In this document: positions 1-3,000 of the stretch, piece after piece
Layout of the letters: every line of letters starts with the position of its first letter
How positions within the stretch are numbered: position 1 is the first letter of the stretch
From: Escherichia coli
GTDB lineage: Bacteria > Pseudomonadota > Gammaproteobacteria > Enterobacterales > Enterobacteriaceae
Strand: one strand, 5' to 3'
Length of the DNA stretch: 64,000 nucleotides
Assembly (NCBI RefSeq): GCF_003334385.1
Contig: NZ_QOWN01000001.1
Made by a program: the position numbers

Positions 1-3000
1 TACTTCAGCCAGGAACGATCAGAAAAAGAGACTATACAGGCTCTGAATCATCTGCGCAGGGTACTTCATGAAGTCAGCCCTTTTGCACAGGAGCCTGTGG
101 ACTGTGTGCTGTGGGTGAAAGCAGATGAGGTGGTGGCCAACGATTATAACCCCAATGTCATGGCGCCGGGTGAGAAGAAACTGCTGAAGCAGTCACTGGA
201 GAAAGATGGTTTCACCCAACCCGTGGTGGTGTCGGCGGAGAAGAACCCCTATCTGGTGGTGGATGGTTTTCATCGTCAGTTACTGGGCAGGGAAGCAGGT
301 ACAGGAAAACGCCTGAAAGGCTGGTTGCCAGTGGCCTGTATTAATCCGGAAAGAAAGGGACAGGCCACACGTATGGCGGCCACCATACGGCATAACCGGG
401 CCAGGGGTAAACACCAGATAACCTCAATGTCTGATATTGTCAGGGACCTGTCACGCCTGGGCTGGACGGATGAACGCATTGGTACAGAGCCTGGGGATGG
501 ACCAGGATGAAGTGCTGAGGCTGAAACAGATTAGCGGACTGACGGAGTTGTTTCAGGAAGAGGATTTCAGCCCGGCATGGACGGTTCGCTGAGACCGTCA
601 TATATGAGTATTATTTCAGTGAGTTGATGTTTTGAGCAGGAAAAATAGTACCCCGGAAGTCGTGGAAGACATGGTTGCACAGAAGCTGGAGGCGGCGGGT
701 TGCTGGCGCAGAGCTTCTGCCCGCTGGCTTTTTGTTATGGGAAATGTTGAATGTACAGAAGCACAACGGGAGTGGTTGTTGTTGCGCCGGAATTATTGTC
801 TGGCGCAGATATCGTCCCCGCCGCTACCTGAAAAGCTGGATATCAGCGAAGTGGCGAAAGCTGCAGATGCCACGCTGAGGCGAATGGGGATTGCCAGCCC
901 GTCCGGGGAGATATTCAGAAAAGGTACACCGGTCTGTTGATATTCAGGTAACAGGTATTAATGATGAAGAAAGATATGGCGGACAGTGTGTCAATGACAT
1001 GGCAACTTTTATGCGATGAACATGGTTTTACCCGGGAGCACTACAATCAGCTGAAGAAGTTCAGCCCGGAGACATTACGTGAAATTATTGCTGAAATAGC
1101 CAGCTGTCATCCATCAACCAGTGTATTGCTCAGGAATAAGTGGCTGACACCGCCGGAGGATATTCTGGAGCAGATTACCCGTGAATACGAACGAAGAATA
1201 CAAAACTGTCCATCGTTCAGGAGCGAGAAGGAAGCGGAATCCTGGTTAAATGAACTGTCTTTTGCTGTGATTGCTCCGCTATACCGTGTTGTCCCCGAAC
1301 AAACAGAACAGGTTGAGTCCTTTGTTCTGCAGCTTATTGCCGAGCAGGAGCGGGTTTGGGAGCTTATTTTAACCAATGATGGTTATTCATGGCATTGCGC
1401 ACTTTATGATATATTATTTCATCTGGTTTTACGAAATATGGAAGACCAGCCTGAACATCAGAGACAGCGAATAACAAAAATACTTAATGAGTCCGATACA
1501 AGACGGGTGGCAGAAGAGATTAAATTCCGGATTCAATATCTTCAGGATGAAGAACAAAAGAGAGTTTTAAGTGATCTGGTAAATGTCCTGATTTCAAAAA
1601 GATAAAACATGCCGGAGTAATTTTTCTATATGTTAATAAAACAGGTGCGTATTACCATGAAGAAGATCGGTGAGTAACCGTTATTGGATGATCTCCTTCC
1701 ATAAAAATACGCGCAATCTAACGGTTCGCTCTGTGCCAAAAAAAGATATTGCTCACAATATCAAGTTAATCATTCGGCCGTTGAACATTTCCATTGAAAA
1801 ATTTCTCAGTATAGAATATACCAATGTTGAGGGCATTCCTCTTACATCTCGAAGGATAACTATCATGGGTCTTAAACCAGGTCCAAAACCAATTGCTAAG
1901 TCGGTAGGAAAACCGGATCAACGCCGACGCGATAATAAAGATACTCCTGGCAATACTCCGGGACTAAAGCCAAGTAAGTCCACAGGTAAGTAAAAAAATA
2001 AGGGTATAAACAAGCATTTATACACTGACTATATATCCAGTCCACTGAAGGTGTTTCAGCAACCAGATGCTCGTTCTTTCTATATCATACGCCTTTGCCC
2101 CGTACCCTTTCGCAAGCAAAGACTCTGGTAAATACTCGTCATATTTATCCAGATCCTTATCAGGAACAACTGCAGCAAGCTCAAATTCTGAAGGTGCAAA
2201 ATGGCATCTGAATCGATCACGACCTGGCATGAGCGAGAGAAGAGGCCAGTGATACAAGGCGTCGTGTACTACGCGGATCATCGAGACGGGCATGTCCAAA
2301 CTGCTCGTTAGCCCATGAATAACAATCAGAAAGTACCATAACAGAGTCGAATAAAATGAAATATAAGAGAAGATCAACGGGTGAAGAAAAAGTTCAAAAA
2401 ATGGCTACCGGGGAGGAAGGAAAGTACCGGATGGAAAGAGCCCCCCCTAAAGCAGACTGACAGACATCACAAATCCCCGGGTGGGGACTTGTGTATAAGA
2501 GACAGGTCTTACAGGGGGAGCGTCCGTCTTTTTATCAACATCAGGCAATGACATAACATTATGAACAAGCGCACAAGTCTGATGGTTAAATTTTATAATG
2601 CTCCTTACTAAGACCGTATTTTTTCATTCTGAGATAGAGTTTTTTCCGTGGGATTTGTAAATATTCAGCAACCTCATTGATACGCCCCTGATGGATATTA
2701 AGCGCCTCTGTGATTATCTGTCGCTCAGCGTCCTCCACTCGTCTGTCAAGCGGTGTCGGGGTTCCGACGTGCATCAACGGATTTGCTGTTTCTGCCAGCG
2801 GTAATACTCCTACAGTAAATAGTTCTGCTGCATTGGCCAGCTCTCGCACATTATTTGGCCACATGCGGCGCATCATCTCTTTGAGCATCTCTTTTCCCAC
2901 TTCCGGAACAGGATGGTTAAGCCGTTGACATGCTTTACAAAGGTAATGGCGAAACAGTGGTTCAATATCGTCGGGGCGTTGAGTTAATGGCAGGCAAGCG

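What the first reader, a model, noticed from the sequence alone, without database searches (positions are those of the whole stretch)
961..1605. Uncharacterised 214-aa cargo protein downstream of the PerC-like regulator
This is a clean ORF with no recognisable motif, in an operon-like arrangement with the ParB-like and PerC-like genes. Such small clusters at island edges sometimes encode anti-defence or regulatory functions, but I cannot support a specific call.
Basis: inference. Interest (0 to 1): 0.35.

Follow-up and report, generated by a model that had tools for sequence, protein, structure and literature searches.

The report
Short SpnT-like protein beside PerC regulator
The 214-codon gene is real and conserved: it encodes a short, acidic, all-helical relative of the poorly understood mobile-element protein SpnT and travels with a PerC-type regulator in E. 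coli islands, but its function has not been tested.

Summary
The ORF at 961-1605 (+) is confirmed. The window is E. coli CFT073, in the island at tRNA-Phe (pheU), and the gene is C_RS24600 / WP_001332013.1.

It is a real gene. About 20% of complete E. coli genomes carry it. Codons 12-160 are under purifying selection (dN/dS 0.19-0.26). A published STEC transcriptome reports the gene after ibrB-perC ('hyp3') as co-induced with them on cell adherence.

"No recognisable motif" holds only for the standard libraries (Pfam, NCBIfam, PHROGs, PADLOC). Profile comparison shows homology to the N-terminal ~190 residues of the ~460-aa DUF6880 family (hhalign 99.1%). Databases name members of that family "SpnT protein", and UniRef already gives the identical CFT073 protein that name. 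The ORF lacks the C-terminal half, and it lacks the Tn3/RecX context seen on the four DUF6880 plasmids inspected.

The model is an acidic, soluble helical repeat with no catalytic signature. PerC is adjacent in about 1034 of 1039 E. coli genomes. PerC also recurs, in two other gene orders, next to homologues only 45-49% identical.

Best reading (inferred): a non-enzymatic binding partner or modulator that acts with the PerC-type regulator. No evidence supports a defence or anti-defence role. This is a new variant of a known but obscure family, of modest interest.

The parts
961..1605 (+). The finding: a 214-aa short SpnT-like protein (N-terminal domain of DUF6880 only), C_RS24600 / WP_001332013.1
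   Evidence: ORF and RefSeq annotation. Homology to DUF6880 N-terminus: hhalign 99.1%, E 1e-18; phmmer hits to ~460-aa DUF6880 proteins; BLASTP E 1e-12 to the 462-aa E. coli 'spnT'. UniRef name 'SpnT protein' for the identical sequence. AF2 gives an all-alpha helical repeat, pLDDT 70.8.
994..1440 (+). Conserved core of the ORF (codons 12-160), containing the near-invariant LLRNKWLTPPEDIL and DGYSW motifs
   Evidence: Invariant columns in alignments A1 and A2. dN/dS 0.19-0.26. The same motifs are aligned to NGWLSxPDDVL and DTSSGSW of DUF6880 proteins.
1441..1605 (+). Fast-evolving, mosaic C-terminal third of the ORF (codons 161-214)
   Evidence: dN/dS 0.42-1.12. Between the CFT073 and O157 alleles there are 21 differences here against 3 in codons 12-160. 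GC falls from 0.47 (window 1001-1400) to 0.36 (window 1401-1800).
671..940 (+). PerC-family regulator gene (pchD type), C_RS24605, ending 20 nt upstream of the ORF; probably co-transcribed with it
   Evidence: RefSeq annotation. PHROG 994 and 10396 'transcriptional activator' hits. PerC and ORF are contiguous in 1034 genomes. No terminator-like site lies between them.
1..592 (+). IbrB-like ParB-domain gene, frameshifted in CFT073; its start lies just upstream of the window
   Evidence: Split ORFs 97-510 and 437-592. PHROG 2159 at 1.8e-57. RefSeq notes 'frameshifted'. The gene is intact in O157 and O26.
1670..1993 (+). Downstream 107-aa very basic hypothetical protein (pI 10.9), C_RS24595. It is present after the ORF in some islands only.
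   Evidence: No PHROG or PADLOC hit.

Best explanation
Shown: the ORF is a functional gene for a cytoplasmic, acidic (pI about 5, net charge about -9), all-alpha helical-repeat protein. It is a short, stand-alone version of the N-terminal domain of the SpnT / DUF6880 family of mobile-element proteins. It sits directly after a PerC-family (pchD-type) activator gene, at the distal end of the ibrA-ibrB-perC gene string of a tRNA-linked genomic island, and is very probably co-transcribed with it. Inferred: it has no catalytic signature and acts by binding. The most likely mode is as a partner, holder or modulator of a small basic nucleic-acid-binding regulator, here the co-encoded PerC-type protein (pI 9.2-10.8). 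This would parallel the full-length SpnT proteins, which on the four plasmids inspected are followed by the small basic RecA regulator RecX (4-nt overlap in three of them). The conserved core (residues 12-160) would carry the shared function. The fast-evolving C-terminal third would tune specificity to the local partner. Confidence in the identity (SpnT-family N-domain, real gene) is about 0.85. Confidence in the partner-of-PerC mechanism is about 0.3. The figure given is for the whole statement.
Against: No physical interaction was shown. An AF2 run on a PerC-linker-ORF fusion gave pTM 0.53 with the PerC C-terminal half below pLDDT 50, which is not a confident complex. No PAE or contacts were available and the paired alignment had only 5 rows. 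PerC is absent next to several homologues. A second E. coli clade (54-56% identity) follows an ImpA_N/VasL gene. Enterobacter homologues follow a Crp-family gene. Serratia homologues follow DUF2913. Another lineage follows a ClpX-type zinc-finger gene. The E. coli genomes are close relatives, so 1034 of 1039 is largely inheritance. The published SpnT phenotypes concern full-length proteins that are only about 33% identical over about 114 residues, and they were read second-hand. The AF2 monomer has only moderate confidence.
Confidence: 0.4

Rival explanations
1. It acts like full-length SpnT and independently of PerC. It would be a mobile-element factor that binds a host replication, recombination or nucleoid protein and slows replication or cell division, to the benefit of the island (maintenance, or transfer timing).
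For: Homology to the SpnT N-domain. As summarised in PMC11064533, spnT overexpression in E. coli MG1655 gave elongated cells and nucleoids and more DNA per cell, possibly through PriA; deletion of the 462-aa E. coli spnT changed ampicillin and gentamicin survival of clumps. Full-length genes are coupled to RecX on Tn3-type elements. Several short homologues lack PerC.
Against: The ORF lacks the whole C-terminal half of SpnT and has no RecX or Tn3 neighbour. It is not known which half carries the published activity. The recurrent PerC linkage is not explained by this reading.
Confidence: 0.25
2. It is part of a phage-defence or anti-defence module of the island.
For: The surroundings are rich in defence genes. 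There is an OLD-family nuclease upstream in CFT073, an AAA/helicase gene with Mokosh-like (MkoA/MkoC) hits in O157, and the PADLOC candidate PDC-S63 (DUF6933) between PerC and the homologue in L024. Type I and type III R-M systems lie next to full-length DUF6880 genes.
Against: The ORF, PerC and IbrB have no PADLOC hit. tblastn finds no match in 50,697 phage records. No relatives are found in IMG/VR. No viral fold match has E below 0.39. The neighbouring defence genes vary from island to island while the ORF stays.
Confidence: 0.1
3. It is a decaying remnant: a truncated spnT-like gene, carried along with PerC, with no function of its own.
For: It corresponds to only the N-terminal 40% of the long family. 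The C-terminal third evolves nearly neutrally. Some alleles carry a premature stop (strain MB06234, and the 185-aa annotated forms). The neighbouring IbrB is frameshifted in CFT073.
Against: The length of 194-219 aa is kept in E. coli, Yokenella, Enterobacter and Serratia at 28-56% identity. dN/dS is 0.19-0.26 in the core. The probable ortholog 'hyp3' is reported as transcriptionally induced (identity by position and island).
Confidence: 0.07
4. It is an accessory or flanking component of a type VI secretion cluster.
For: In the 54-56% identity clade the gene directly follows the ImpA_N/VasL gene at the end of a T6SS cluster. VasL or ImpA_N fragments lie upstream of the module in other E. coli islands and in L024. 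A T6SS cluster is adjacent in Serratia.
Against: In CFT073 and O157 no T6SS genes accompany it. In Serratia it is on the opposite strand, beside an integrase. The adjacency is explained by shared tRNA or integration hotspots. There is no signal peptide, TM segment or effector/immunity signature.
Confidence: 0.05

Closest known systems
SpnT of the Serratia marcescens Tn3-family transposon TnTIR, and the 462-aa 'spnT' of E. coli strain 4972 (Pfam DUF6880, PF21810)
   Same: The N-terminal ~190 residues are homologous, with shared NKWLTxPxDIL and DGxSW motifs. Both are acidic, cytoplasmic, all-helical proteins. Both are carried on mobile DNA of Enterobacterales. Database names already equate them.
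   Different: The ORF is 214 aa, not about 460. It lacks the C-terminal half with the SKYYxxAASDxKKxIDY region. It does not reach any Pfam threshold. It is next to PerC and IbrAB rather than the Tn3 transposase, resolvase and RecX. The gene studied in PMC11064533 is a different locus, in an asn-tRNA element beside a type III R-M system. The S. marcescens sequence itself could not be compared here.
[not shown]
   Same: Very probably the ortholog. It is the gene after ibrB-perC in the tellurite adherence island / SpLE1. WP_001333354.1 is the gene product in both O26 and O157, and the O157 locus is 95% nt identical to the window ORF. The reported prevalence of 21% matches the 19.6% found here.
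   Different: The CFT073 allele sits in the pheU island next to pgtABCP. Its C-terminal third differs. The paper gives expression and distribution only, with no family assignment or function.
Helical-repeat (HEAT/TPR-like) adaptor and chaperone proteins
   Different: There is no sequence-level HEAT or TPR repeat hit. The similarity is generic and does not define a function.

Membership tests
SpnT / DUF6880 (PF21810) | Match to the Pfam DUF6880 model | tested here: not met
   Pfam scan of the ORF gave only a chance-level Arm-DNA-bind_4 hit. Full-length relatives do match PF21810.
SpnT / DUF6880 (PF21810) | Homology to the family's N-terminal domain | tested here: met
   hhalign 99.1%, E 1e-18, 187 aligned columns. 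phmmer E 2e-8 to 5e-4 to four ~460-aa proteins. BLASTP E 1e-12 to E. coli 'spnT'.
SpnT / DUF6880 (PF21810) | Full-length architecture of about 460 aa, including the conserved C-terminal half | tested here: not met
   The ORF ends at about DUF6880 position 193. All close relatives are 194-219 aa.
SpnT / DUF6880 (PF21810) | Passenger of a Tn3-family transposon, next to a resolvase and followed by recX (or by spnIR in TnTIR) | tested here: not met
   The window context is ibrB-perC-ORF, in a pheU island. The Tn3/RecX context is seen only for long forms. The TnTIR layout itself rests on recalled literature, not on a paper read here.
SpnT / DUF6880 (PF21810) | Overexpression phenotype (filamentation, nucleoid change; reduced pigment and sliding in Serratia) | not testable with these tools
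   Known only from the summary in PMC11064533.
ibrAB-perC island operon | Same strand, short or overlapping intergenic distances, no terminator, co-expression | tested here: met
   20-nt gap in CFT073 and 1-nt overlap in strain C5. No terminator-like site between perC and the ORF. Published co-induction of ibrB, perC and hyp3. A joint transcript was not shown directly.
Known anti-phage defence or anti-defence proteins | Match to a PADLOC model, or to phage-encoded proteins | tested here: not met
   No PADLOC hit. No phage tblastn hit. No IMG/VR relative. No BFVD fold match.
PerC-binding partner (proposed, not an established family) | Conserved genomic linkage to PerC across divergent lineages | tested here: inconclusive
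   PerC is adjacent or near in 3 lineages with 3 gene orders. It is absent in at least 4 others. The fused AF2 model gave pTM 0.53.

The most novel reading that the evidence does not exclude
The SpnT superfamily may be a class of acidic helical 'holder' proteins that mobile elements pair with small basic DNA- or RecA-binding regulators: RecX for the long form on Tn3 transposons, PerC for this short form on islands. If so, the 214-aa protein would be the missing co-factor, or anti-activator, that sets when PerC/Pch-type regulators act on virulence and prophage genes in pathogenic E. coli.
Probability: 0.2. Interest if true: 0.55.

Novelty: new variant of a known kind. Interest (0 to 1): 0.3.

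Why it matters
PerC/Pch regulators switch on the LEE and other horizontally acquired genes in EPEC and EHEC, and how they work is still poorly understood. A conserved partner encoded next to the pchD-type copy would be a concrete, testable lead. The gene is in about one fifth of E. coli genomes. PMC7649339 reports it (as hyp3) in 82.6% of EAEC genomes and in most O157-type islands, and reports it as induced on adherence. It still has no family assignment in RefSeq. Linking it to SpnT/DUF6880 also ties together two orphan observations: the SpnT overexpression phenotypes, and the SpnT-RecX operons on Tn3 transposons. If the protein is only a passive passenger, the finding is ordinary island cargo.

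Tried and rejected
- Standard family libraries gave nothing for the ORF: NCBIfam, PHROGs, PADLOC and Pfam. A PDB sequence-profile search gave only chance hits.
- The other 214-aa hypothetical gene in the same island (L001 9950-10594) is not a paralogue (BLASTP E 0.14).
- Phage origin is rejected: no phage tblastn hit, no IMG/VR relative, no BFVD fold match.
- A scan of GTDB species representatives with the family pattern found no relatives. The short family appears confined to a few Enterobacterales.
- PerC is not a diverged RecX (hhalign probability 0.2%).
- The PerC-linker-ORF fusion AF2 model was inconclusive.
- The gene deleted as 'spnT' in PMC11064533 was traced through its primer. It is a different, full-length gene, so its phenotypes cannot be transferred directly.
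- Full-length DUF6880 genes in chromosomes showed no conserved neighbourhood.
- The original SpnT and IbrAB papers (Wei 2006 J Bacteriol and BBRC; Sandt 2002) are not held in the library. No paper mentions DUF6880.
- Promoter and terminator scans were at chance level.

Full report
**Observation.** The window's first 2400 bases are 100% identical to E. coli CFT073 (NC_004431.1, about 4,960,394-4,962,793, reverse strand). This is the genomic island inserted at tRNA-Phe (pheU). The order there is: tRNA-Phe, integrase, an AAA gene broken by IS3, an OLD-type ATP-dependent nuclease, a hypothetical gene, a PAPS-reductase (IbrA-like) gene, an IbrB-like ParB-domain gene (frameshifted), a PerC-family regulator, the ORF in question, a 107-aa hypothetical gene, a transposase fragment, and then pgtA/B/C/P. 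The ORF runs from ATG 961 to TAA 1605 on the + strand and encodes 214 aa. RefSeq annotates it as C_RS24600 / WP_001332013.1, 'hypothetical protein'.

**It is a real gene.**
- Full-length homologues at 50-93% identity exist and keep the same length.
- The DNA is present in 1062 of 5426 complete E. coli genomes, almost always on the chromosome.
- Nei-Gojobori estimates give dN/dS 0.19-0.26 for codons 12-160 in four comparisons. Codons 161-214 give 0.42-1.12.
- The CFT073 and O157 alleles differ at 3 positions in the core but at 21 in the tail. The 3' third is therefore mosaic and fast-evolving. GC also falls across it.
- Some alleles carry a premature stop.

**What it is.** Pfam, NCBIfam, PHROGs and PADLOC give nothing. 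An exhaustive phmmer search of 1.8 billion representatives found only 37 hits. These are short relatives (about 195-220 aa, down to 34% identity) and, more weakly, the N-terminal ~170 residues of four ~460-aa proteins. Three of those four carry a recorded or tested PF21810 (DUF6880) match.

A profile-profile comparison of the short family against these long proteins gives 99.1% probability and E 1e-18, aligning residues 24-213 with 4-193. The strongly conserved LLRNKWLTPPEDIL and DGYSW motifs align with NGWLSxPDDVL and DTSSGSW.

Foldseek's best AFDB hit is a 92%-identical protein named 'SpnT protein'. UniRef gives the same name to the sequence identical to the window protein (B7MN48). NCBI uses it for full-length PF21810 proteins of Salmonella.

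The 'spnT' deleted in E. coli 4972 (PMC11064533) was located through its published primer. It is a 462-aa DUF6880 protein in an asn-tRNA element beside a type III R-M system. It matches the window protein at 33% identity over about 114 residues, E 1e-12. The window gene is therefore a short, N-domain-only relative of SpnT. It is not the gene that was studied.

The short family occurs in E. coli, E. fergusonii, Yokenella, Enterobacter and Serratia. It was not found among GTDB species representatives or IMG/VR contigs.

**Context.**
- In E. coli the PerC gene and the ORF are contiguous in 1034 genomes, against 1039 that hold most of the ORF. The gap is 20 nt in CFT073, and there is a 1-nt overlap in strain C5.
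- The broader module AAA / IbrA / IbrB / PerC / ORF recurs in O157, O26 and other islands.
- In a Yokenella homologue (45% identity) the order is PRiA4_ORF3, ORF, PerC, with a 4-nt overlap.
- In another lineage (49% identity) the order is PerC, DUF6933, ORF.
- The PerC proteins in these loci are orthologous to the window's (48-58% identity).
- PerC is absent beside other homologues. A second E. coli clade follows an ImpA_N/VasL gene at the end of a T6SS cluster. Enterobacter homologues follow a Crp-family gene. Serratia homologues follow DUF2913. One lineage follows a ClpX-type zinc-finger gene.

Full-length DUF6880 genes were inspected on four plasmids. On Vibrio pJM1, a Klebsiella plasmid and a Shewanella plasmid, a recX homologue follows the DUF6880 gene with a 4-nt overlap. 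On Yersinia pGDT4 an IS110-family element separates recX from it. Only the Klebsiella recX was checked against Pfam. A resolvase precedes the gene on pJM1, Klebsiella and pGDT4, and a Tn3-family transposase is also present on pJM1 and pGDT4. The Shewanella plasmid has neither. Both recurrent partners, PerC and RecX, are small and basic.

**Mechanism.** What is shown:
- the gene is real;
- it belongs to the SpnT family by its N-domain;
- it is predicted to be a soluble, acidic helical repeat;
- it has operon-like coupling to PerC, and that coupling recurs in rearranged form.

What is inferred: the protein acts by binding rather than catalysis, most likely with the PerC-type regulator, in parallel with SpnT-RecX. 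I put this at about 0.3-0.4.

An AF2 run on a PerC-linker-ORF fusion gave pTM 0.53 and a disordered PerC C-terminus, and no contact information was available. I count it as inconclusive.

The main rival (0.25) is a PerC-independent, SpnT-like action on host replication or division. It rests on phenotypes reported for full-length SpnT, which I read only second-hand. Defence or anti-defence (0.1) is suggested only by the neighbourhood and finds no direct support. A dead remnant (0.07) is contradicted by the selection data. A T6SS accessory role (0.05) is better explained by shared integration hotspots.

**Comparison and novelty.** The closest known entity is SpnT / DUF6880, itself barely characterised; no paper in the library mentions DUF6880. 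The ORF passes the homology test. It fails the architecture, Pfam-threshold and context tests, so I file it as a short variant subfamily and not a plain member. The gene has been noticed before, as 'hyp3', a proposed virulence gene, and UniProt already labels it SpnT. The new elements are the explicit domain assignment, the truncation, the mosaic C-terminus and the recurrent PerC linkage. Interest is modest (0.3). It would rise if a PerC complex were demonstrated.

Noticed in passing
window 28028-28122 (-): A full-length tRNA-Sec gene (Rfam 83.8 bits; ARAGORN anticodon TCA) lies inside the island. RefSeq NC_004431.1 has no tRNA feature at the corresponding position. That position falls inside the CDS C_RS24445, 'inovirus Gp2 family protein', on the same strand. 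From memory the sequence looks like E. coli selC.
   Followed up: partly
window 56126-56164 (+): A JUMPstart cis-regulatory element (Rfam 55.2 bits), of the kind found upstream of long surface-polysaccharide or haemolysin operons.
   Followed up: no
window 1-592 (+): The IbrB-like ParB-domain gene is frameshifted in CFT073, giving two overlapping ORFs (97-510 and 437-592). It is intact in O157 and O26, where ibrA is sometimes the broken one instead.
   Followed up: partly
L028 3998-5823; L018 6992-8817; L029 3995-5694; L027 3998-7388: On four plasmids, full-length DUF6880 / 'SpnT' genes are followed by a recX homologue. There is a 4-nt overlap on Vibrio pJM1, Klebsiella and Shewanella; on Yersinia pGDT4 an IS110-family element lies between. 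A resolvase precedes the gene on pJM1, Klebsiella and pGDT4, and a Tn3 transposase is also there on pJM1 and pGDT4. This SpnT-RecX pairing is not mentioned in any paper I could find.
   Followed up: partly
window 1441-1605 (+): The last 54 codons of the ORF evolve almost neutrally (dN/dS 0.4-1.1). They hold 21 of the 31 differences between the CFT073 and O157 alleles, which suggests recombination or diversifying selection at the C-terminus.
   Followed up: partly
L024 1471-2244: In one divergent locus a DUF6933 gene sits between PerC and the ORF homologue. It matches the PADLOC single-gene defence candidate PDC-S63 at 7e-49.
   Followed up: no
L001 5121-9756 (CFT073, just upstream of the window): Next to the island integrase lie an AAA gene interrupted by IS3 and a 482-aa OLD-family nuclease (PADLOC Old, 1e-47). 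This looks like a disrupted defence hotspot.
   Followed up: no
window 1670-1993 (+): A 107-aa, very basic (pI 10.9) hypothetical protein with a low-complexity Pro/Lys-rich tail follows the ORF. It is conserved in some islands (for example MB06234) but replaced by other genes in O157 and C5. It has no family hit.
   Followed up: partly
L002 2999-4357; L026 4542-5915; L006 and L007 fragments: An ImpA_N/VasL gene at the end of a T6SS cluster lies directly upstream of the ORF homologue in one E. coli clade. It survives as pseudogene fragments upstream of the AAA-ibrAB-perC module in other islands. This suggests the module was inserted between the VasL gene and the ORF.
   Followed up: partly
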